Assembly: GCA_036502245.1 (NCBI GenBank)
Contig: DASXYX010000028.1
Location: forward strand, 96,637-160,636
Direction of reading: 5' to 3'
Source of the DNA: Verrucomicrobiia bacterium
GTDB taxonomy: Bacteria; Verrucomicrobiota; Verrucomicrobiia; Limisphaerales; UBA11358
DNA: 64,000 nucleotides
In this document: positions 450 to 40,930 of the stretch, piece by piece
Numbering within the stretch: the stretch's first letter is position 1
Layout of the letters: every line of letters starts with the position of its first letter
The notes under the pieces: model-generated
Seen by the model: the letters and a program-made list of their open reading frames with translations, nothing else
Database searches by the model: none
Told to the model about the DNA's origin: nothing
Position numbers and translations under genes: made by a program

Positions 450-2831
450 TTGAAATATGCCGCGCCATTTCAGACCGTATACCATTCAAAGTTGCCATTA
501 CGCATGAAGAAGCAAGCTGTCGCCGCGACCCCGGCTTACAAGAATCGGAATCTGCCCGCTGAGAAGCGCGTTCGCGATCTGCTTTCCCGCATGTCCCTGG
601 AGGAAAAAGCCGCGCAGATGATGTGTGTGTGGCAGGAAAAAAGCGCCAAACTCCTCGATGCGGCAGGGAATTTCGACGCGGCAAAGGCGAAGGCCAGTTT
701 CAAGAAGGGCCACGGCATCGGGCAAGTCGGCAGGCCGAGCGACGCGGGCGCGCCGGCCACGGAACCGTGGCGCGGTAAAACGGCGCGCGGCATGGCCGAG
801 CTGACCAACGCCATCCAGAAATTTTTCATCGAACATTCGCGGCTGGGCATCCCGGTTTTTTTCCACGAGGAATGCCTGCACGGCCATGCGGCGCATGAGG
901 GCACGAGTTTTCCCCAGCCGATCGGCCTGGGCGCGACGTTCAATCCGGACCTGATCGAAAAATTATACACGATGACGGCGGAGGAGACGCGCACGCGCGG
1001 CGGGCACCAGGCGTTGACGCCGGTGGTGGACGTGGCGCGCGACCCGCGCTGGGGACGCGTAGAGGAAACCTACGGCGAAGACCCGTACCTGGTCTCGCGC
1101 CTGGGCATCGCGGCGGTCCGCGGCTTCCAGGGCGACGCGCAGTTCAAGAACAAGAACCGCGTGATCGCGACGTTGAAACATTTTGCGGCGCACGGCCAGC
1201 CGGAGTCGGGCATGAACTGCGCGCCGGTGAACGTGTCTGAGCGCGTCCTGCGCGAGACGTTCCTGTTCACCTTCAAGGAAGCCATCCAAAAAGCGGGCGC
1301 GATCAGCGTGATGGCGAGCTACAATGAGATCGACGGCGTGCCGTCCCATGCGAGCACGTGGCTTTTGCGCGACGTGCTGCGCAAGGAATGGGCGTTCAAA
1401 GGTTTCGTGGTCTCGGATTATTATTCCATCTGGGAGCTGAACAATCGCCCGGACACACACGGCCATTTTGTGGCGGCGGACAAAGCCGAAGCGTGTGCGC
1501 TCTCGGTGAAAGCAGGTGTGAATATCGAGTTCCCCGAGCCGGACTGCTACCTGCACCTCGTGGAACTGATCCGCAAGAAGGTACTGAAGGAATCGGAATT
1601 GGATGATCTGGTCGCGCCGATGTTGCTGTGGAAATTCAAGATGGGCCTGTTCGATGATCCGTACGTGGACCCGAACGTGGCGGCACGCGTCGTGGGCAGC
1701 GAGGCGAACCGCAAGTTGGCCCGCCAGGCCGCGCGCGAAACCATCACGCTCCTAAAAAACGACGGTAACCTCGCGCCGCTGGACCTGAATAAATTTAAGA
1801 CCATCGCCGTCGTCGGCCCGAATGCGAACCGCAGTTTGCTGGGCGGTTACAGCGGCGCGCCGAAGCATGACGTGACGGTGCTCGAAGGCATCAAGGCCCG
1901 GGTGGGCAATCGCGCCAAAGTCGTTTACAGCGAGGGCTGCAAGATCACCAGGGCCGGTTCGTGGCAGCAGGACGAAGTCCTGGCGAGCGATCCCGTGGAG
2001 GACCGCAAGCAGATCGCCGAAGCGTTTGAAGTGGCCCACGATGCGGATGTCATCGTCATGGCCATCGGCGGCAACGAGCAGACGTCGCGCGAGGCGTGGA
2101 ACCTGAAGCACATGGGCGACCGCACGAGCCTGGACCTGATCGGGCGGCAGGATGAATTGGTGGCGGCGATGCTGGCGACCGGCAAACCGGTGGTCGTGCT
2201 GCTGTTCAACGGGCGTCCGCTCTCCATCAACGAGGTCGCCAAGAATGTCCCGACGATTTTCGAATGCTGGTACCTGGGCCAGGAATGCGGCCATGCGGTG
2301 GCGGACGTGTTGTTCGGCGATTTCAATCCGGGCGGCAAGCTCCCTATCACCATCCCCCGCTCCGCCGGGCATCTGCCGGCGTTCTACAATTACAAGCCGT
2401 CGGCGCGGCGCGGTTATCTGTTCGCGGATGTCACGCCGTTGTTCCCCTTCGGCTACGGCTTGAGCTACACGACTTTCAATCTCAAAAATGTTCGGCTGAA
2501 AAATAAAAAGATCCGCGCGAACGGTTCCACGCAGGCGCTGGTGGAGGTCACGAACACCGGCAAACGCGCAGGCACCGAGACCGTGCAGATGTATATCCGC
2601 GACCTGGCCAGTTCGGTGACGCGGCCGATCAAGGAATTGAAAGGGTTTGCGAAGATCGAATTGCGGCCGGGCGAGACCAAAACCGTGGCGCTGGACATCA
2701 CGCCCGAATCGCTCGCGTTCTACGACATCAATATGAAGTACGTCGTGGAGCCAGGCGGGTTCGAGATCATGGTGGGCAATTCGTCGCGCGATGAAGATTT
2801 GCAGAAAGTCGTTTTGACCGTCACCCAATAA
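450..2831 (+). CDS. Glycoside hydrolase family 3 beta-glucosidase/beta-xylosidase (BglX-like)
   Basis: 793-aa ORF (alternative start ATG 504). GH3 hallmarks: SLEEKAAQM, KHFAAHG, GFVVSDY nucleophile region, C-terminal Fn3-like beta-sandwich. First gene of a co-directional sugar operon. Confidence 0.93.
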   Translation: MKYAAPFQTVYHSKLPLRMKKQAVAATPAYKNRNLPAEKRVRDLLSRMSLEEKAAQMMCVWQEKSAKLLDAAGNFDAAKAKASFKKGHGIGQVGRPSDAGAPATEPWRGKTARGMAELTNAIQKFFIEHSRLGIPVFFHEECLHGHAAHEGTSFPQPIGLGATFNPDLIEKLYTMTAEETRTRGGHQALTPVVDVARDPRWGRVEETYGEDPYLVSRLGIAAVRGFQGDAQFKNKNRVIATLKHFAAHGQPESGMNCAPVNVSERVLRETFLFTFKEAIQKAGAISVMASYNEIDGVPSHASTWLLRDVLRKEWAFKGFVVSDYYSIWELNNRPDTHGHFVAADKAEACALSVKAGVNIEFPEPDCYLHLVELIRKKVLKESELDDLVAPMLLWKFKMGLFDDPYVDPNVAARVVGSEANRKLARQAARETITLLKNDGNLAPLDLNKFKTIAVVGPNANRSLLGGYSGAPKHDVTVLEGIKARVGNRAKVVYSEGCKITRAGSWQQDEVLASDPVEDRKQIAEAFEVAHDADVIVMAIGGNEQTSREAWNLKHMGDRTSLDLIGRQDELVAAMLATGKPVVVLLFNGRPLSINEVAKNVPTIFECWYLGQECGHAVADVLFGDFNPGGKLPITIPRSAGHLPAFYNYKPSARRGYLFADVTPLFPFGYGLSYTTFNLKNVRLKNKKIRANGSTQALVEVTNTGKRAGTETVQMYIRDLASSVTRPIKELKGFAKIELRPGETKTVALDITPESLAFYDINMKYVVEPGGFEIMVGNSSRDEDLQKVVLTVTQ

Positions 2832-8224: not shown

Positions 8225-10933
8225 ATGAGACTGATCTATTACACTGCCATCGGACTATTTTGTCTGCTCTCAAACGTCGCCGCGTTGGCCGATGAGACCT
8301 GCGTCTCGTGCGATAAACAGATCACCGTCACCGGCCAGTTCCAGCACCGGCGCGCGTTCGGCGTGGCGACCATCCAGGGCGAGCTTTCGCGCTGGGGCGA
8401 TGCGTTCCGCGAGGAGATTTACGGCACGAACTTCACCATCACCATCGCCAACCTGCCGGCGGGAAGTTATACGGCATACATCGGATTTGCGGAAGTGGAT
8501 TACACCAACACGGGTGACCGCGTGTTCGACATCACGGGCAATGGCCAACCCATCGCCACCAATTTTGACATCGTCGCCGCGGCAGGTGGTTCGGGCAAAG
8601 TGTATTTCATCACTAACCAAATTGATTTTGCAGGAGAATCAATCGGCGGACCGATGACGTTCAATTTTGCGGGCCGCGTTGGCGACGCCAAAATGAATTC
8701 GTTCGAGCTGCGCGATGCCAGCAAGCAATCGATTGTGTTTATCCGCGCGGCGGATCTGCTGGACGTCGGCGACAAAGCCGCGCTGGCGCCGCCCGTGGTG
8801 AACGGGCCGGAGATATGGAAAGACCCGGCGCAGCCCGTTGACGCGCGCGTGCAGGACCTGATCAGCCGCATGTCGCTCGCCGAAAAAGTGCAGCAGATGC
8901 GCAATAATGCCCCGTCCATCCCGCGACTTGGCGTGCCGGCTTACAATTATTGGAGCGAATGCCTGCACGGCGTGGCGCGTTCGGGCGTGGCCACGGTGTT
9001 TCCCCAGGCCATCGGCATGGCCGCTACGTGGGACACCCCGCTCATCCATCAGGAGGCGCATGTCATTGCCGTGGAAGCGCGCGCGAAGAACAATGATTAT
9101 CGCGCCAAACACGACGGCAATACTGTCCAGTACTACGGCCTGCATTTCTGGACGCCGAACATCAACATTTTCCGCGACCCGCGTTGGGGCCGCGGCCAGG
9201 AAACCTACGGTGAAGATCCGTTCCTGACCGGGCAACTGGGCGTCTCGTTCATCCAGGGTTTGCAAGGCGACGACCCGAAATATCTCGAAGCCTACGCGTG
9301 CGCGAAACATTACGCCGTCCACAGCGGACCGGAACCGCTCCGTCATGAATTTGATGTCTCTCCGCCTGAGCGCGATCTTTACGAGACCTACCTGCCCCAG
9401 TTCGAAGCGGCGGTGCGCGAAGGCCATGTCGGCGGCGTGATGGGAGCCTACAATGCGGTCGAAGGCAAACCCGCCTGCGCGAGTCCGTTTTTGCTGACCG
9501 ACCTATTGCGCAATCAATGGGGATTTGACGGTTACGTCACTTCCGATTGCGGCGCGATCTTCGATATCTGGGCTAATCATAAATTTGTCAACTCACCCGA
9601 AGAAGCCGCCGCCGTGGCAGTGAAGGCGGGCGACGACCTTTGCTGCGGCACGGATTACGATGCGCTGGCGCGCGCCGTACAGGAAGGCCTCATCACGCAA
9701 CAGGAGATCGATACCGCCCTTGCGTGGTTGCTCAAGACGCGCTTCCGCCTCGGCATGTTCGACCCACCCTCAATGGTTCCTTACGACCAGATTCCGGCAT
9801 CGGAGAATAATACGCCCGCGCACCAGGAACTGGCGCTACAGGTCGCGCGGGAATCGATGGTCTTGCTAAAAAACAATGGCCTGTTGCCGCTCAACCGCAA
9901 CAAAATCAAACGCATCGCTGTCATCGGCATCAATGCCGATTCCACGAACGTGTTGCTCGGCAATTACAACGGCACGCCGTCAAACCCGATCAGAATTCTC
10001 GATGGCATTCGCGCCGTCGCCGGTGTAGACGTCCAGGTGGATTATGTGCGCGGCTGTCCTTTGGCCACGCATACCAATGAGACCTATCAGCCGGACGACG
10101 ATTTCACCAATGCCGTCAACGCTGCCGCTCAAGCCGACGTAGTCATTTATGTGGGCGGCATTGACGCCCATCTGGAAGGCGAAGAGATGCGTGTTTATCT
10201 GGACGGATTTAACGGCGGTGACCGCACGCGCATCGAATTGCCCACGTCACAGGAAACGCTGTTGAAAGCGTTGCAGGCGACCGGCAAACCGGTGGTCTAT
10301 GTCAATTGCAGCGGCAGCGCCATGGCCATGCCGTGGGAAAAGAAATTTCTTCCCGCCATTTTGCAAGCGTGGTATCCCGGCGAGGAAGGCGGACGCGCCG
10401 TGGCCGAGACCTTGTTCGGCGATTACAATCCTGCCGGACGTTTGCCGGTAACATTTTACCAGTCCACTGCCGATCTGCCGGATTTTGAAAACTATTCCAT
10501 GAGCAACCGCACCTACCGTTATTTCACCGGCAAACCGCTCTTCGCCTTCGGCCATGGATTGAGCTATACGAAGTTCGCTTATCGCCATGCCAAGTTGGCG
10601 GACAAAACAATCAGCTCAAACGGCACACTCACGGTAACGTTTGACGTCAAGAATACTGGCAACCGCGACGGTGATGAAGTGGCGCAAGTTTATTTCCGCC
10701 ATGTGAATTCTGCCGTGCCGCAACCCCTGGAGGCGCTATGCGGCTTCCAACGCGTCCACCTGGCCGCTGGCCAAAGCCAGACGGTCACCAACGAAATCCC
10801 CGTCGAACGATTCCGTTATTGGGACACAACGAAACAACAATACGTTGTTGAGCCGGGCAAATACCAGTTGCTCGTGGGAGCAGCGTCCGATGATATCCGG
10901 GAACGGTTGGCGTTTAGTGTGGCAGGGCAATGA
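8225..10933 (+). CDS. Exported GH3 beta-xylosidase/beta-glucosidase with N-terminal malectin-like carbohydrate-binding domain
   Basis: Hydrophobic N-terminus (MRLIYYTAIGLFCLL). Malectin-like segment YTAYIGFAEVDYTNTGDRVFDITGNG...FDIVAAAGG. Then a GH3 core (SLAEKVQQM, KHYAVHSGPE, GYVTSDC) and an Fn3-like C-terminus. Confidence 0.9.
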   Translation: MRLIYYTAIGLFCLLSNVAALADETCVSCDKQITVTGQFQHRRAFGVATIQGELSRWGDAFREEIYGTNFTITIANLPAGSYTAYIGFAEVDYTNTGDRVFDITGNGQPIATNFDIVAAAGGSGKVYFITNQIDFAGESIGGPMTFNFAGRVGDAKMNSFELRDASKQSIVFIRAADLLDVGDKAALAPPVVNGPEIWKDPAQPVDARVQDLISRMSLAEKVQQMRNNAPSIPRLGVPAYNYWSECLHGVARSGVATVFPQAIGMAATWDTPLIHQEAHVIAVEARAKNNDYRAKHDGNTVQYYGLHFWTPNINIFRDPRWGRGQETYGEDPFLTGQLGVSFIQGLQGDDPKYLEAYACAKHYAVHSGPEPLRHEFDVSPPERDLYETYLPQFEAAVREGHVGGVMGAYNAVEGKPACASPFLLTDLLRNQWGFDGYVTSDCGAIFDIWANHKFVNSPEEAAAVAVKAGDDLCCGTDYDALARAVQEGLITQQEIDTALAWLLKTRFRLGMFDPPSMVPYDQIPASENNTPAHQELALQVARESMVLLKNNGLLPLNRNKIKRIAVIGINADSTNVLLGNYNGTPSNPIRILDGIRAVAGVDVQVDYVRGCPLATHTNETYQPDDDFTNAVNAAAQADVVIYVGGIDAHLEGEEMRVYLDGFNGGDRTRIELPTSQETLLKALQATGKPVVYVNCSGSAMAMPWEKKFLPAILQAWYPGEEGGRAVAETLFGDYNPAGRLPVTFYQSTADLPDFENYSMSNRTYRYFTGKPLFAFGHGLSYTKFAYRHAKLADKTISSNGTLTVTFDVKNTGNRDGDEVAQVYFRHVNSAVPQPLEALCGFQRVHLAAGQSQTVTNEIPVERFRYWDTTKQQYVVEPGKYQLLVGAASDDIRERLAFSVAGQ

Positions 10934-10934
10934 T

Positions 10935-11032: not shown

Positions 11033-11106
11033 AGGCGACTTTAACCAAAACTTCTACTTAATTTCCAAATACTCAAACATGAAGTAGCGAAACGTATTAA
11101 ACCTTT

Positions 11107-11206
11107 GGCAATCCCAAAGGGATTGCAATAATATAGCCCGGCGTTGCGAGGAACGAGCTACGCCGGGTTACGTCCAAAGCAAATATTCAACCCTGAAAGG
11201 GTTGAA
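11107..11206 (+). repeat. Structured ~100-bp leader of RAYT copy 1 (three hairpins)
   Basis: GCAATCCC-AAA-GGGATTGC; CCCGGCGT-N15-ACGCCGGG; TTCAACCC-TGAAA-GGGTTGAA. Near-identical copies at 23798-23897 and 24528-24627. Confidence 0.75.
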
Positions 11207-11215
11207 TCAAAGTTT

Positions 11216-11671
11216 ATGCCGCAGTCCTTATCAAATATTTTGGTGCATGCCGTATTTTCCACCAAAGATCGGCGTCCGTTTATCCGGGATAAAGGCTTAC
11301 GCGGTGAATTGCACAAATACATCGGCGGCATTTTGAATCATCTCGATTGTTATCCACTCATCGTTAGCGGTGTTGAAGATCACGTGCATCTGCTCTCCAC
11401 CCTCTCCCGTACTTGTGAACCGGCAGAAATGGTCAAAGAGGTCAAACGTGGCTCATCGTTATGGATTAAGCAAAGGGATGTAAAGCTGCAGGATTTTGCA
11501 TGGCAAAGTGGTTACGGGATCTTTTCCATCGGGGTTTCCCAAATTGAACCAGTCAGTAATTATATTGCGGGGCAGGAAGAACATCACCGGACAGTTTCAT
11601 TTCAGGATGAATTGCGGAAATTATTGCGCGAACACAAAATCGAATTTGATGAACGGTATGTCTGGGACTGA
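11216..11671 (+). CDS. rayT: REP-associated tyrosine transposase (RAYT; IS200/IS605-like Y1/HUH transposase fold), copy 1
   Basis: 151 aa from ATG 11216. HUH motif (DHVHLL) and YIAGQEEHH catalytic-Tyr motif. No tnpB partner. Flanked by REP hairpins. The longer ORF-track start at 11144 runs through the repeat leader. Confidence 0.9.
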   Translation: MPQSLSNILVHAVFSTKDRRPFIRDKGLRGELHKYIGGILNHLDCYPLIVSGVEDHVHLLSTLSRTCEPAEMVKEVKRGSSLWIKQRDVKLQDFAWQSGYGIFSIGVSQIEPVSNYIAGQEEHHRTVSFQDELRKLLREHKIEFDERYVWD

Positions 11672-11768
11672 TTCAACCCTTTCAGGGTTGAATTTATTCG
11701 CAACCTGAACCCAGCGTAGGCGCAAACGCCAACGCTGGGCTTTATTATTTCAACCCCGTTGGGGTTGA
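11672..11768. repeat. REP cluster (trailer of RAYT copy 1)
   Basis: TTCAACCC-TTTCAG-GGTTGAA; CCCAGCGT-N14-ACGCTGGG; TCAACCCC-GTT-GGGGTTGA. Confidence 0.75.
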
Positions 11769-13020: not shown

Positions 13021-13129
13021 ATCTTGCGTTCCAAGGGCACGCAAAATGGCAGCAAAAGAAAAAATAGACAGAAAAAAATTACCGCCGGCGCTCTTATGGG
13101 CGCATCTCACTTTTTTGCAACTGTTATGC

Positions 13130-13510
13130 CTGAATCCTGAAAGGATTCCCATCATTCAGCCCAGCGTAGGCTCGCAGACTCGCCAACGCTGGGTTTGGTG
13201 GAGAAAAAGATCAACCCCAACGGGGTTGTATCGCCAATGGGCACGAATGGATTCAACCCTTTCAGAGACCTCTGCAAAAGGGGTAGCGCAGGTTTCCTAA
13301 CCTGCTGTATCGCCGACTTCCAAGTCGGCAGAGCGTGGAAACATTGGGAAACCAGCGGATTGGGAAATCCGCGATACAAGTCTGCGCTACAATAAGGTGT
13401 TTTGCAGAGGTTTCTTTCAGGGTTGAATTCATGGCGTCATCACCCCAGGGCAGCTCGTTCCTCGCAACCTTTGGGCTGAATGATTCAATCCCGTTGGGAT
13501 TGCTGAACAG
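13130..13510. repeat. Composite REP cluster (BIME-like) including a nested insertion
   Basis: Degenerate trailer module at 13130-13240 (CCCAGCGT..ACGCTGGG; TCAACCCC-AAC-GGGGTTG). Split TTCAACCC/GGGTTGAA REP at 13251-13430. Inverted degenerate RAYT-leader copy at 13440-13505 (..GCTCGTTCCTCGCAAC..CAATCCC-GTT-GGGATTG). Confidence 0.7.
13266..13414. mobile_element. 149-bp non-coding foldback (MITE-like) element inserted in the loop of a REP hairpin
   Basis: 12-bp perfect terminal inverted repeats ACCTCTGCAAAA (13268-13279) / TTTTGCAGAGGT (13400-13411). Flanking TTTCAG duplicated at 13260-13265 and 13415-13420. Inner stem GTAGCGCAG / CTGCGCTAC plus three internal hairpins. Confidence 0.6.
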
Positions 13511-13610
13511 GCAAGAACTGCAAGAAACTGAGATGCGCCCCGCTCTTACTCTCCATCGCCATCTCATTGCCCGCCCTCGCCATCCCCACGCCTTCTGCTA
13601 ATCTCAATAC

Positions 13611-23792: not shown

Positions 23793-23797
23793 GTTTT

Positions 23798-23897
23798 GGC
23801 AATCCCAAAGGGATTGCAATAATATAGCCCGGCGTTGCGAGGAACGAGCTACGCCGGGTCACGTCCAAAGCAAATATTCAACCCTGAAAGGGTTGAA
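23798..23897 (+). repeat. Structured leader of RAYT copy 2
   Basis: Same three hairpins as 11107-11206, with single-base differences. Confidence 0.75.
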
Positions 23898-23906
23898 TCA
23901 AAGTTT

Positions 23907-24362
23907 ATGCCGCAGTCCTTATCAAACATTTTGGTGCATGCCGTATTTTCCACCAAAGATCGGCGTCCATTTATCCGGGATAAAAGCTTACGCGATGAAT
24001 TGCACAAATACATCGGCGGCATTTTGAACCATCTCAATTGTTATCCACTCATCGTCGGAGGTGTTGAGGATCATGTGCATCTGCTCTCCACCCTTTCCCG
24101 AACCTGTGAACCGGCTGAAATGGTGAAAGAAGTCAAACGCGGATCATCGTTATGGATCAAGCAAAAGGATTTAAACCTGCAGGATTTTGCATGGCAGAGT
24201 GGCTATGGAATCTTTTCCCTCGGAGTTTCCCAAATCGAACCAGTCAGTAATTATATTGCAGGGCAGGAAGAACATCACCGGACAGTTTCATTCCAGGACG
24301 AATTGCGGAAATTATTGCGCGAACATAAAATCGAATTTGATGAACGGTATGTATGGGACTGA
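23907..24362 (+). CDS. rayT: REP-associated tyrosine transposase (RAYT), copy 2
   Basis: 151 aa. 8 amino-acid differences from copy 1 by manual alignment (G27S, G30D, D44N, S51G, R87K, V89L, K90N, I105L). Same HUH and Y motifs. Confidence 0.9.
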   Translation: MPQSLSNILVHAVFSTKDRRPFIRDKSLRDELHKYIGGILNHLNCYPLIVGGVEDHVHLLSTLSRTCEPAEMVKEVKRGSSLWIKQKDLNLQDFAWQSGYGIFSLGVSQIEPVSNYIAGQEEHHRTVSFQDELRKLLREHKIEFDERYVWD

Positions 24363-24460
24363 TTCAACCCTTTCAGGGTTGAATTCGTTTGGAACCTGAA
24401 CCCAGCGTAGGCGAGAACGCCAACGCTGGGCTATATGATTTCAACCCCGTTGGGGTTGAA
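24362..24460. repeat. REP cluster (trailer of RAYT copy 2)
   Basis: TTCAACCC-TTTCAG-GGTTGAA; CCCAGCGT-N14-ACGCTGGG; TCAACCCC-GTT-GGGGTTGA. Confidence 0.75.
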
Positions 24461-24527
24461 GGCCAATTACGTTAGTGCTCCCCCATTATATTATTTCGTC
24501 AAGACTTGAAGATTCAGAAATGTTTTT

Positions 24528-24627
24528 GGCAATCCCAAAGGGATTGCAATAATATAGCCCGGCGTTGCGAGGAACGAGCTACGCCGGGTCATGTCCAAAC
24601 CAAATCTTCAACCCTGAAAGGGTTGAA
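24528..24627 (+). repeat. Solo RAYT leader (third copy, no transposase gene behind it)
   Basis: GGCAATCCCAAAGGGATTGC..CCCGGCGT..ACGCCGGG..TTCAACCCTGAAAGGGTTGAA, followed directly by the 3' end of the convergent gene at 24660. Confidence 0.7.
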
Positions 24628-24659
24628 TCAATTTCATCAACAACAGCAAACCTCCCCTA

Positions 24660-35514: not shown

Positions 35515-36141
35515 TCACCAGTCCTTGATGACTTGATTTTGCGGCGGTTGCTGATTTCCCTTTGGCCCCATTTGCAGATATTGCTCGTTTTCCTTTTGCG
35601 CGTCCAATAATCGCTTGGCGTCTTCCGCCGACATCATGTTCGCCTGCTGTTGATTCTGATCAGCCTGCTGCGCCTGCTGGCCTTTTTGTTGTTGGTTCTG
35701 CTTCGCCTGATTTGGTTGATTCTGCTGCTTTTGACCCTGCTGTTGTTGATTTTTTTGGTTTTGCGACTGGTTCTGCTGGTTCTGTTGCGATTGCTGATTC
35801 TGTGATTGTTGCTGTTGGGACTGGTTCTGCTGAGATTGATTCTGTTGCGATTTATTTTGCTGGCTCTGCTGGCTCTGGTTTTGATTCTGCTGATTTTGCT
35901 GGTTCTGTTGATTCTGTTGGCTTTGGGACTGCTGCTGTTGCTTGAGTAATTGCTCCAGCTTTTTCAATTTGTCGTCGTCGGGGTAGAGCTTCAAGCCCTT
36001 CTCCGTCCTGTCCAGTGCCGCGGGGACGTTGTTGGAAATATAAAGCCGCGCGCCGCCGTTGAAATAATCGTCAGCGGTCTGCGCGTCCGCGGCCATGGAG
36101 GCCAACAGGAGATTAAGGCTGATGAGGTGTCGAAATGTCAT
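35515..36141 (-). CDS. BatC-like exported TPR protein with long Gln/Asn-rich low-complexity region
   Basis: Signal peptide (..LLLASMAADAQT), one TPR-like unit, then about 100 residues of Q/N/S repeats. Last gene of the Bat operon; overlaps the batB end by 29 nt. Confidence 0.65.
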   Translation of the reverse strand: MTFRHLISLNLLLASMAADAQTADDYFNGGARLYISNNVPAALDRTEKGLKLYPDDDKLKKLEQLLKQQQQSQSQQNQQNQQNQQNQNQSQQSQQNKSQQNQSQQNQSQQQQSQNQQSQQNQQNQSQNQKNQQQQGQKQQNQPNQAKQNQQQKGQQAQQADQNQQQANMMSAEDAKRLLDAQKENEQYLQMGPKGNQQPPQNQVIKDW

Positions 36142-39313: not shown

Positions 39314-40222
39314 TCATCCACGCAACCTTCGCTTCTCACGCGTCTCAAAAAATCGCCCCAGGGCCGCGCTATATGGCTCGTCAGTTCGAACCTGGATAGA
39401 GTCGATGCCTGACGACCTGAATTGCCTTGCCAGTTCTTCAATCTGTTTTTCCTGTTTTAACGCAAATGCGCTTCGGCTGCTCGTACTCCCCGTATTGATT
39501 TCAAGGATTTCGCCTGATTCGGCGTCCTCCAAAATCAACCGTCCCAACGCCGGTAATTCCATTTCGTAACGGTCCGTGATCTGCACCGCCACCACATCAT
39601 GTTTACGGTTCGTCTGCCGAAGCGCGCTTTGGACTACTTTTGGCAGCATACCGCCGCCTTTTTCCGTTAGAAAATCGGAGACCACCACCGTCACAGCCTT
39701 GTGCGATTGTACCCGCATGAGGAATTCCAACGCCCGCCCGAGGTCGGTGCCCCGCCGCTTTGGCTCAAAATACAACACTTCGCGGATGACTCGAAGCACG
39801 TGACTGCGCCCTTTGCGGGGCGGAATGAATTTCTCCACCTCGTCTGTAAAAAGGATCAGCCCCACCTTATCACTGTTGCGGATGGCGGAAAATGCGAGCA
39901 CCGATGCAATTTCCGCCGCCAGCTCGCGTTTCGACTGCCCGCGCGAACCGAACAATCCCGATCCGCTCACGTCCACGACAAGCATGAGCGTCAACTCACG
40001 CTCTTCGACAAATTTTTTGATGAACGGATGGTTCATGCGGGCGGTAACGTTCCAATCAATCGAACGCACGTCATCCCCGGGCTGGTATTCACGCACCTCA
40101 TCGAAGTTCATCCCCTGCCCCTTGAAGACCGAATGATACTGGCCTGCGAGCGTCTCCGTCACGATACGGTTCGTGCGGATCTCGATCTGCCGGATTTTTT
40201 TGAGGATTTCGCGGGGGATCAT
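39314..40222 (-). CDS. DUF58-domain protein (MoxR-associated, VWA-like)
   Basis: 302 aa. ..GQYHSVFKGQGMNFDEVREYQPGDDVRSIDW.. is the canonical DUF58 motif. Confidence 0.9.
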   Translation of the reverse strand: MIPREILKKIRQIEIRTNRIVTETLAGQYHSVFKGQGMNFDEVREYQPGDDVRSIDWNVTARMNHPFIKKFVEERELTLMLVVDVSGSGLFGSRGQSKRELAAEIASVLAFSAIRNSDKVGLILFTDEVEKFIPPRKGRSHVLRVIREVLYFEPKRRGTDLGRALEFLMRVQSHKAVTVVVSDFLTEKGGGMLPKVVQSALRQTNRKHDVVAVQITDRYEMELPALGRLILEDAESGEILEINTGSTSSRSAFALKQEKQIEELARQFRSSGIDSIQVRTDEPYSAALGRFFETREKRRLRG

Positions 40223-40242
40223 GCGCTTGCAAAATGATTCGT
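40148..40242. repeat. Direct repeat A (5' leader + first 25 codons of the intact DUF58 gene)
   Basis: Aligns with 40813-40907 (offset 665 bp). The 74-nt core 40155-40228 vs 40820-40893 has a single mismatch. Confidence 0.85.
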
Positions 40243-40261
40243 GGGCGGTAGATTAAGAGAT

Positions 40262-40803: not shown

Positions 40804-40812
40804 CATGCTCAC

Positions 40813-40907
40813 GAGTGTTTCCGTCACGATGCGGTTCGTGCGGATCTCGATCTGCCGGATTTTTTTGAGGATTTCGCGGGGGATCATGCGCTTACAATAT
40901 GCTTCGT
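40813..40907 (-). pseudogene. Direct repeat B: orphan duplicate of the DUF58 5' leader and first 25 codons
   Basis: Minus strand from ATG 40887 encodes [25 protein letters not shown], identical to the DUF58 N-terminus, then diverges. Lies 43 nt downstream of the DUF5069 stop. Confidence 0.75.
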
Positions 40908-40930
40908 TGCCGATCAAATTTTCCATGCAC

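What the first reader, a model, noticed from the sequence alone, without database searches (positions are those of the whole stretch)
13251..13430. A REP hairpin split in its loop by a 149-bp foldback element with a 6-bp duplication: a direct insertion footprint
The REP GATTCAACCC-TTTCAG-GGTTGAATT is intact at 11671-11695 and 24361-24385. At 13251-13430 it reads ATTCAACCC-TTTCAG, then a 149-bp insert at 13266-13414, then TTTCAG-GGTTGAATTC. The loop hexamer is therefore present on both sides. The insert has perfect 12-bp terminal inverted repeats (ACCTCTGCAAAA / TTTTGCAGAGGT). It also has a second 9-bp stem (GTAGCGCAG 13283-13291 / CTGCGCTAC 13382-13390) and three internal hairpins (GCAGGTT-TCCTA-ACCTGC, GCCGACTT-CCA-AGTCGGC, GCGGATT-GGGA-AATCCGC). 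It has no coding capacity. This is clean evidence that a small structured non-autonomous element transposed into the loop of another repeat. The apparent 6-bp target duplication is not expected for IS200/IS605/RAYT-type single-strand transposition, which leaves no duplication. The mobilising enzyme is therefore unclear.
Basis: seen in the sequence. Interest (0 to 1): 0.62.

Follow-up and report, generated by a model that had tools for sequence, protein, structure and literature searches.

The report
IS5-type MITE inside a REP hairpin
A 150-bp non-coding transposon remnant (a MITE carrying the end sequences of IS5-family insertion sequences) has landed in the 5-base loop of a REP hairpin in a Verrucomicrobiae genome and duplicated that loop; it is a tidy but ordinary transposition footprint.

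Summary
The interpretation needs two corrections.

- **Boundaries.** The REP is TTCAACCC-TTTCA-GGGTTGAA, an 8-bp stem with a 5-nt loop. The insert is 150 bp (13265-13414), with ends GAGACCTCTGCAAAA and TTTTGCAGAGGTTTC. The duplication is the 5-bp loop TTTCA (13260-13264 and 13415-13419). The apparent sixth base, G, is the first base of the inverted repeat on the left and the first base of the REP 3' arm on the right.
- **The enzyme class is identifiable.**
  - Full-length 1,245-1,246-bp IS5-family insertion sequences from Bacteroidales carry perfect 15-bp ends GAGACCTCTGCAAAA/TTTTGCAGAGGTCTC. Source annotations name the closest relatives ISPg8, and they match NCBIfam NF033581.
  - These elements make 5-bp duplications at 10 distinct sites.
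  - At least 117 small elements (135-165 bp) with the same end core occur across many phyla, with 4-bp YTAR-like or 5-bp AT-rich duplications.
  - Published relatives have near-identical ends: ISNme1 (with the ATR MITE) in Neisseria, and ISPg1 (with BrickBuilt) in Porphyromonas.

Hairpin-loop targeting is not a family trait: 2 of 60 copies, one being this one. No sibling copy and no cognate transposase was found in the window.

Verdict: a new member of a known kind, of low interest.

The parts
13252..13259 (+). 5' arm of the split REP hairpin (TTCAACCC)
   Evidence: Matches the intact REP TTCAACCC-TTTCA-GGGTTGAA found six more times in the window.
13260..13264 (+). Left copy of the 5-bp target-site duplication TTTCA. 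This is the REP loop.
   Evidence: Identical to 13415-13419. A 5-bp duplication is the rule for GAGACC-ended elements: 23 small copies and 10 distinct sites of full-length IS.
13265..13414 (.). 150-bp non-autonomous IS5-family element (MITE), 52% G+C, a strongly folding foldback.
   Evidence: Boundaries come from the family comparison. Folding. At 150 bp it has no room for a transposase gene, and tblastn found no IS5-type transposase anywhere in the window. No Rfam match.
13265..13279 (+). Left terminal inverted repeat GAGACCTCTGCAAAA
   Evidence: 15/15 identical to the ends of the 1,245-1,246-bp IS5-family IS in L249-L269.
13400..13414 (-). Right terminal inverted repeat. Reverse complement is GAAACCTCTGCAAAA, one mismatch to the left end.
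   Evidence: The GAAACC variant is the form seen at both ends of copies in Verrucomicrobiota MAG075 (L047, L067, L088).
13283..13390 (.). Internal stem (GTAGCGCAG/CTGCGCTAC) enclosing three local hairpins. The arms 13306-13329 and 13355-13378 are 79% complementary.
   Evidence: I2, I9, I13, I19, I20.
13415..13419 (+). Right copy of the 5-bp target-site duplication TTTCA
13420..13427 (+). 3' arm of the split REP hairpin (GGGTTGAA)
13160..13228 (.). Two other REP-type hairpins of the same cluster: CCCAGCGTAGGC...GCCAACGCTGGG and CAACCCC-AAC-GGGGTTG.
   Evidence: I4, I18. The same composite unit sits next to the RAYT genes (family D4).
11216..11671 (+). RAYT / Y1 transposase gene flanked by inverted copies of the same REP (11186-11206 and 11672-11692). 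It is context for the target, not part of the insert.
   Evidence: PF01797 Y1_Tnp; NF033573, 57 bits against a cut-off of 55; JGI names it 'REP element-mobilizing transposase RayT'.
23907..24362 (+). Second RAYT gene copy (95% amino-acid identity), likewise flanked by the REP (23877-23897 and 24363-24383).
   Evidence: P0122.

Best explanation
[quoted passage not shown] It has no transposase gene of its own.

Proposed mechanism:
1. A DDE transposase of the IS5 family (NCBIfam NF033581 type, ISPg8/ISNme1-like end specificity), supplied in trans, recognised the 15-bp terminal inverted repeats GAGACCTCTGCAAAA.
2. It integrated the element by cuts staggered 5 bp apart at the pentanucleotide TTTCA.
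3. Repair of the gaps duplicated TTTCA.
4. That pentanucleotide happened to be the whole loop of a REP hairpin belonging to the genome's RAYT/REP system. The REP arms now lie 155 bp further apart, and the REP is probably disabled as a hairpin.

Shown here:
- the insertion footprint;
- identity of the ends with autonomous IS5-family elements;
- the matching 5-bp duplication rule.

Inferred:
- supply of the transposase in trans;
- transposition as a small element rather than later shrinkage of a full-length IS;
- choice of the loop because it is an A+T-rich pentamer, not because it is a hairpin loop.
For: **The insertion footprint**
- Excising 13265-13419 restores a REP identical over 25 nt to intact copies.

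**Autonomous relatives share the ends and the duplication length**
- Full-length 1,245-1,246-bp elements encoding 351-aa IS5-family transposases have perfect ends GAGACCTCTGCAAAA/TTTTGCAGAGGTCTC. The transposases are P0058, P0016 and P0008; P0058 scores 263.7 bits against NF033581, cut-off 140.
- They make 5-bp duplications at 10 distinct sites: ACTGT, TAACC, GATAT, AAATG, GGGTG, TAGAT, GTATG, CTATG, TGGAT, GCTTT.
- In L130, a 100-bp element with the same ends and a 5-bp duplication (AAAGT) sits inside the transposase gene of such an IS. That IS's own end is TTTTACAGAGGTCTC.

**A large family of small elements has the same end core**
My estimate of the chance expectation is about 1.
- In 116 copies, G is at position -4 in 106. 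Of these, 38 have an exact 4-bp duplication, mostly CTAG/TTAG/TTAA/TATA. Another 23 have an exact 5-bp A+T-rich duplication, mostly with GAGACC ends.
- A 1.18-kb IS5-family IS on a Comamonas plasmid has ends GGAACCTCTGCATAA with a CTAG duplication. Among 80 metagenomic relatives, those whose ends could be located carry ends of the type GGAAnnTCTGCAnAA, mostly with 4-bp duplications.

**Literature**
- ISNme1 (IS5 family) has ends GAGACCTTTGCAAAA and is the proposed parent of the ATR MITE. P. gingivalis MITEs share ends with ISPg1/ISPg4 (PMC4596501).
- MITEs are mobilised in trans by the cognate IS (PMC2575886).
Against: - No second copy of this particular 150-bp sequence was found. It is single-copy in the 64-kb window. 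There were no hits for its left-end 21-mer in the metagenome collection, although that collection does not hold the window's own contig either. There was no TIR-like motif in 128 kb around related RAYT genes.
- No IS5-family transposase is encoded in the window or in L001 (tblastn), so a cognate enzyme in this genome is not demonstrated.
- The interior has no similarity to any fetched IS or MITE.
- Arm-to-arm identity beyond the 15-bp ends is at random level by a crude global alignment (32/60), unlike most family members (median 0.67). The usual foldback signature of a MITE is therefore only partial here.
- The autonomous elements with identical ends come from Bacteroidales, not from Verrucomicrobiota.
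Confidence: 0.85

Rival explanations
1. It is an in-situ remnant. A full-length IS5-family insertion sequence inserted into the REP loop and made the 5-bp duplication. It later lost its interior by deletion, leaving 150 bp. On this reading the small element itself never transposed.
For: - It is single-copy, with no sibling found.
- Arm identity beyond the ends is at random level, as in full-length IS.
Against: - Its size falls within the 135-165 bp range of more than 100 non-autonomous relatives. That range was set by the search pattern, so this is weak evidence.
- It folds far better than shuffles (z -8.8 to -9.5). It has a 9-bp second stem and 24-nt arms that are 79% complementary. The ends of full-length IS are not expected to show these features.
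- No trace of transposase coding sequence remains: tblastn was negative.
Confidence: 0.1
2. It is a functional structured RNA gene or regulatory element (riboswitch, ribozyme, sRNA or terminator) whose conserved ends merely resemble transposon ends.
For: - Very stable predicted fold on both strands.
- It lies about 245 bp upstream of the MFS transporter gene start, in an intergenic region.
Against: - No Rfam family at gathering threshold, or at E up to 10, apart from a weak CRISPR-DR9 match (E 0.56).
- No promoter-like or terminator-like site inside it.
- Its ends are identical to those of transposase-encoding IS, and it is flanked by a target duplication.
- The interior is not conserved in any relative.
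Confidence: 0.03
3. It is a single-strand, RAYT or IS200/IS605-type insertion. The Y1 transposase encoded nearby moved the element into the REP.
For: - Two RAYT genes and many REPs are present in the window.
- The target is a REP.
Against: - There is a 5-bp direct duplication and 15-bp terminal inverted repeats. Neither is a feature of Y1-mediated transposition.
- The ends match those of DDE-transposase elements.
Confidence: 0.01

Closest known systems
ISPg8/ISPg1 (IS1126)-like IS5-family insertion sequences of Bacteroidales, and ISNme1 of Neisseria meningitidis
   Same: - Terminal inverted repeats. The elements in L249-L269 have GAGACCTCTGCAAAA, identical to the window's left end.
- ISNme1 has GAGACCTTTGCAAAA, one base different. 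ISPg1 has GAGACCATTGCA (PMC4596501).
- A 5-bp target duplication at the 10 sites examined.
   Different: - They are 1.2-kb autonomous elements encoding a 351-aa DDE transposase. The window element is 150 bp and non-coding.
- They were found in Bacteroidales and Neisseria, not in Verrucomicrobiota.
- There is no interior similarity.
IS5-family MITEs: ATR of N. meningitidis; BrickBuilt and MITEPgRS of Porphyromonas gingivalis
   Same: They are small non-autonomous elements that share only the IS5-type ends (GAGACC...TGCA) with a cognate IS. They are presumed to be mobilised in trans (PMC4596501, PMC2575886).
   Different: - The interiors are unrelated. BrickBuilt and MITEPgRS contain tandem repeats.
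- Those elements are multicopy in their genomes. The window element is single-copy in the sequence available.
The 135-165-bp CCTCTGCAAAA-ended elements found here in many phyla (L002-L118)
   Same: - The same end core and the same size range.
- All are foldbacks.
- Copies with GAGACC or GAAACC ends mostly make 5-bp duplications, including copies in Verrucomicrobiota MAG075 and a Methylacidiphilales MAG.
   Different: - The interior sequence is unrelated.
- The large roughly 161-bp class has GGRA-type ends and 4-bp YTAR-like duplications.
Insertion sequences that land in REPs (IS1397 and ISKpn1 of the IS3 family; ISPpu9/10 and IS621 of IS110; ISRm22; ISNm1106 of IS5)
   Same: A transposable element sits inside a REP. 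REP-associated IS belong to five families, including IS5 (PMC1525189).
   Different: Those elements target REPs specifically, with most or all copies in REPs. Here only 2 of 60 family members lie in a hairpin loop, so REP targeting is not shown.

Membership tests
IS5-family non-autonomous element (MITE) | Terminal inverted repeats the same as, or nearly the same as, those of an autonomous IS of the family. | tested here: met
   The left end is 15/15 and the right end 14/15 identical to the ends of the IS5-family IS in L249-L269. P0058, the transposase of L249-L258, matches NF033581 (263.7 bits, cut-off 140).
IS5-family non-autonomous element (MITE) | A target-site duplication of the length made by the cognate IS. 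| tested here: met
   TTTCA (5 bp) on both sides. The IS with identical ends make 5-bp duplications at 10 sites. 23 small copies also have exact 5-bp duplications.
IS5-family non-autonomous element (MITE) | Small size and no transposase gene. | tested here: met
   It is 150 bp, too short for a transposase gene. tblastn with an IS5 transposase found nothing in the window.
IS5-family non-autonomous element (MITE) | Several copies in the genome at different sites. | tested here: not met
   Single copy in the 64-kb window. No hit for its left-end 21-mer in the metagenome collection. None in 128 kb of related contigs. The rest of the genome could not be searched.
IS5-family non-autonomous element (MITE) | A cognate transposase present in the same genome. 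| not testable with these tools
   None in the window or L001.
REP / RAYT system (the target, not the insert) | A short G+C-rich palindrome repeated in intergenic regions and flanking a Y1 (RAYT) transposase gene in inverted orientation. | tested here: met
   - There are 6 intact copies plus the split one.
- Inverted pairs flank both RAYT genes.
- REPs within 3 mismatches of it lie next to the 75-77%-identical RAYT genes P0189 and P0125 in other contigs; a related cluster is annotated as Verrucomicrobiota.
IS200/IS605- or RAYT-mobilised element | No terminal inverted repeats and no target duplication; subterminal hairpins; insertion 3' of a specific tetra- or pentanucleotide. | tested here: not met
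   The element has 15-bp terminal inverted repeats and a 5-bp direct duplication.
REP-targeting insertion sequences (IS1397-like behaviour) | Most copies of the element are inserted in REP or hairpin loops. | tested here: not met
   Of 60 family copies with an exact duplication, only the window copy and L114 are flanked by a stem of 9 bp or more. 57 of the 60 have 0-2 bp.
Known structured RNA families (Rfam 15) | A covariance-model match at the gathering score. | tested here: not met
   No match in the window element or in 17 loci holding relatives.

The most novel reading that the evidence does not exclude
In this Verrucomicrobiae lineage the element, or its transposase, may preferentially use extruded REP hairpin loops as targets. 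On this reading an IS5-type transposon parasitises the RAYT/REP system, the combined REP-plus-MITE stem has been kept as a structured RNA or DNA element upstream of the MFS transporter gene, and the hit on an A+T-rich pentamer was not random.
Probability: 0.07. Interest if true: 0.45.

Novelty: new member of a known kind. Interest (0 to 1): 0.22.

Why it matters
It gives a clean, base-resolved example of one class of bacterial repeat nested in another: a DDE-transposon-derived MITE inside a Y1/RAYT-dependent REP. It is useful for teaching and for repeat annotation.

The family survey also shows how far the IS5-type end GRRNCCTCTGCAAAA reaches. It marks hundreds of unannotated 135-165-bp elements in Verrucomicrobiota, CPR bacteria, Proteobacteria, Bacteroidota and other groups.

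It changes no current understanding of transposition. The 'unexpected' duplication is exactly what the cognate IS family produces.

Tried and rejected
- **Rfam.** A gathering-threshold scan of the window, a permissive scan of 13150-13550, and a gathering scan of 17 loci holding relatives found nothing relevant. The CRISPR-DR9 match (E 0.56, 16.8 bits against 45) was rejected as chance.
- **ARAGORN.** No tRNA-like gene at the site.
- **Literature search for the end sequence as text.** Only unrelated primers.
- **Autonomous copies within the 118 genome loci.** Exact and 2-mismatch end pairs 600-3000 bp apart, with ORFs, were all a MITE end paired with a chance match.
- **Viral-contig scan for GAGACCTCTGCAAAA.** Mostly chance 15-mers. 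It did yield L130, which led to the cognate IS.
- **Second viral scan with the L130 transposase.** It found only L130 itself.
- **Metagenome scan for the window-specific left end.** Zero hits, not even the window's own contig.
- **blastn against plasmids.**
  - The window element gave nothing.
  - Comamonas and Burkholderiales copies gave only more small copies.
  - A 30-nt end query found the Comamonas aquatica IS5-family element. It also gave an unrelated 19-nt match next to a phage integrase in E. coli plasmids, which was rejected.
- **Orthologous empty site.** Looked for via the neighbouring 172-aa and 409-aa proteins. The only other contig ends at the repeat.
- **The 3-bp duplication reading (TTC, with 16-bp ends).** Rejected. 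In 23 of 30 family copies whose central 3 bp match, both outer bases also match. About 1 in 16 would be expected if the duplication were only 3 bp.

Full report
**Observation**

- The palindrome TTCAACCCTTTCAGGGTTGAA is intact at 11186, 11672, 23877, 24363 and 24607. A two-mismatch variant is at 10934. No match is expected by chance.
- At 13252-13427 its two arms are separated by an insert.
- The insert has perfect 12-bp inverted repeats (13268-13279 and 13400-13411).
- It has a 9-bp second stem and the three local hairpins at the stated coordinates.
- It folds far better than shuffled sequence. As RNA: -71.8 kcal/mol, z -8.8 on the + strand and z -6.5 on the - strand. As DNA with the REP arms included: z -9.5.
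- Removing 13265-13419 restores GATTCAACCCTTTCAGGGTTGAATT, identical over 25 nt to the intact copies.

The footprint is real and is not a chance resemblance.

**Context**

- The window is part of a 190,664-bp JGI metagenome contig, 3300036780 Ga0376652_0000101.
- The second copy of its Y1 transposase is also held by NCBI as 'IS200/IS605 family transposase [Verrucomicrobiae bacterium]' (P0122). The organism is therefore a Verrucomicrobiae MAG.
- The palindrome is a genuine REP.
  - Inverted copies flank two RAYT genes, 11216-11671 and 23907-24362. These match PF01797 and NF033573, and JGI names them 'REP element-mobilizing transposase RayT'.
  - REPs within three mismatches of it lie next to the 75-77%-identical RAYT genes P0189 and P0125 in other contigs. 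A related cluster is annotated as Verrucomicrobiota.
- The split REP lies in a cluster of three hairpin types. The cluster sits in the intergenic region between an MFS transporter gene and a 172-aa ORF.

**What the insert is**

The element is single-copy in the window and matches no Rfam family.

My own estimate of the chance expectation is about one (596 Gb x 31 spacings / 4^22). The hits came from Verrucomicrobiota, CPR Uhrbacteria and Peregrinibacteria, Deltaproteobacteria, Comamonas, Lautropia, other Burkholderiales, Gamma- and Alphaproteobacteria, 'Bacteroides' periocalifornicus, Eggerthella and others.

I tabulated 116 copies.
- The inverted repeat extends four bases further out than the search core, as G-R-R-N-CCTCTGCAAAA. 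G is at position -4 in 106 of 116.
- The copies fall into about 28 clusters with unrelated interiors.
- 38 have an exact 4-bp direct duplication, mostly CTAG, TATA, TTTA, TTAA or TTAG. That is a YTAR-like target.
- 23 have an exact 5-bp A+T-rich duplication. Most of these have GAGACC ends.

A 3-bp reading of the 5-bp class can be rejected. In 23 of 30 copies whose central three bases match, both outer bases match too. About 1 in 16 would be expected otherwise.

Applied to the window, the element is 13265-13414 (150 bp), with ends GAGACCTCTGCAAAA and GAAACCTCTGCAAAA. The duplication is TTTCA, at 13260-13264 and 13415-13419. The REP is an 8-bp stem with a 5-nt loop, so the duplication is exactly the loop. 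The sixth 'duplicated' base, G, is the first base of the inverted repeat on the left and the first base of the REP 3' arm on the right.

**The enzyme**

No autonomous copy lay in the 118 loci. Three further routes identified the family.

1. *Comamonas plasmid.* A 30-nt end query against plasmids found a 1.18-kb IS on a Comamonas aquatica plasmid. It is annotated 'IS5 family transposase'. Its ends are GGAACCTCTGCATAA / GAAACCTCTGCATAA and its duplication is CTAG. Among 80 metagenomic relatives of that transposase, those whose ends could be located carry ends of the type GGAAnnTCTGCAnAA, mostly with 4-bp ttag, ctag or ctaa duplications.
2. *Nested element in L130.* On viral contig L130, a 100-bp element with GAGACCTCTGCAAAA ends and a 5-bp duplication (AAAGT) interrupts a transposase gene. 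The right end of that IS is TTTTACAGAGGTCTC. The repaired protein matches NF033581 'IS5 family transposase' (164.7 bits, cut-off 140) and Pfam DDE_Tnp_1.
3. *Full-length elements.* Homologues of the L130 protein include proteins named 'IS5 family transposase ISPg8'. DNA around three of them (P0058, P0016, P0008) shows full-length 1,245-1,246-bp elements.
   - Their 15-bp ends are perfect: GAGACCTCTGCAAAA / TTTTGCAGAGGTCTC.
   - They have 5-bp duplications at ten distinct sites: ACTGT, TAACC, GATAT, AAATG, GGGTG, TAGAT, GTATG, CTATG, TGGAT, GCTTT.
   - One further site has no duplication.

The left end of the window element is identical to these ends and its duplication has the same length. The mobilising enzyme class is therefore an IS5-family DDE transposase.

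The literature agrees.
- ISNme1 of N. meningitidis (IS5 family) has ends GAGACCTTTGCAAAA and is the proposed parent of the ATR MITE (PMC4596501).
- ISPg1 has GAGACCATTGCA. The P. gingivalis MITEs BrickBuilt and MITEPgRS share ends with ISPg1, ISPg9 and ISPg4 (PMC4596501).
- ISPg8 is the current name of ISPg1, which was formerly IS1126 (PMC5771137, PMC2575886).
- MITEs are moved in trans by the cognate IS (PMC2575886).

**Is the REP loop a preferred target?**

I rebuilt the empty sites of the 60 copies that have an exact duplication. Only the window copy and L114 (TTAA at the centre of a palindrome with 14-bp arms) are flanked by a stem of 9 bp or more. 57 of the 60 have 0-2 bp, matching a control in which flanks were re-paired at random.

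Hairpin-loop targeting is therefore not a family property. The simplest reading is that the A+T-rich pentamer TTTCA fitted the loose A+T-rich preference of the 5-bp class.

REPs are known landing sites for IS of five families, including IS5 (PMC1525189). Those cases show most copies in REPs, which cannot be tested here with one copy.

**Limits**

- No sibling of this particular 150-bp sequence was found. It is single-copy in the window. Its left-end 21-mer gave zero hits in the metagenome collection, which also lacks the window's own contig. There was no end-like motif in 128 kb around related RAYT genes.
- No IS5-type transposase is encoded in the window or in L001.
- The interior matches nothing fetched.
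- Arm-to-arm identity beyond the ends is at random level by a crude alignment: 32/60, against a family median of 0.67.
- An in-situ internal deletion of a full-length IS therefore remains possible, at about 10%. Either way, the insertion and the duplication were made by an IS5-family transposase.
- A role as a structured RNA is not supported. There is no Rfam match, no promoter-like or terminator-like site inside it, and no conservation of the interior.

**Verdict**

It is wrong on the duplication length, and its 'enzyme unclear' is now answered.

This is a new member of a known kind, an IS5-family MITE. It is a neat nested-repeat footprint but not surprising.

Noticed in passing
L008, L014, L032, L012, L009, L059, L021, L038, L043, L117, L007, L081, L010, L027, L036 (element coordinates): - A class of elements about 161 bp long (ends GGRANCCTCTGCAAAA, 4-bp YTAR-like duplication) recurs in at least 9 clusters with no detectable interior similarity.
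- The clusters come from Burkholderiales, CPR Uhrbacteria, Gammaproteobacteria and others.
- All are the same length (160-162 bp). Many have a central hairpin, AATAGC-nnn-GCTATT, flanked by T and A runs.
- The long foldback is kept, with 22 of 34 predicted pairs changed on both sides.
- No Rfam family matches.
- The length and structure conservation across phyla is unexplained.
   Followed up: partly
L130:3514-3613 (IMG/VR UViG_3300007646_000190): A 100-bp GAGACCTCTGCAAAA-ended element with a 5-bp duplication (AAAGT) is inserted inside the transposase gene of a related IS5-family IS. That IS's own end is TTTTACAGAGGTCTC. This is a MITE disrupting its likely helper.
   Followed up: yes
L114:1641-1793 (Candidatus Uhrbacteria-type contig): This is the only other family copy that sits in a hairpin loop. 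Its TTAA duplication lies at the centre of a palindrome with 14-bp arms, TTTTCGTTTAAA...TTTAAACGAAAA.
   Followed up: no
window 11104-11692, 23795-24383 and 24524-24631: - There are two RAYT genes with 95% amino-acid identity. Each lies in a 96-98%-identical repeat with inverted REPs on both sides.
- A third, gene-less copy of the 108-bp RAYT 5' flank is at 24524-24631.
- At least four different hairpin types form composite REP clusters around them.
   Followed up: partly
window 13046-13300 (+): The JGI annotation calls an 84-aa gene here. It runs across the REP cluster and 36 bp into the MITE, and it has no Pfam hit. It is probably a spurious call caused by the repeats.
   Followed up: no
window 35650-35949: A run of imperfect CTG/TTG-rich repeats (12 overlapping 51-nt copies, 61-75% identity) lies inside a 211-aa ORF on the - strand. 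It would encode a Q/N-rich low-complexity tract.
   Followed up: no
window 40147-40247 and 40812-40912: A 101-nt repeat of 92% identity marks the 5' ends of two adjacent - strand ORFs (312 and 266 aa). They look like tandem paralogues.
   Followed up: no
window 1038-2335 versus 9173-10437: Two GH3 beta-glucosidase paralogues, 70-75% identical at the DNA level, lie 8.1 kb apart in a xylan/sugar-utilisation gene cluster.
   Followed up: no
L264-L269 (P0008 element): One full-length IS with perfect GAGACCTCTGCAAAA ends has no flanking duplication: ATTAT on the left against AAATT on the right. This suggests a later rearrangement between copies.
   Followed up: no
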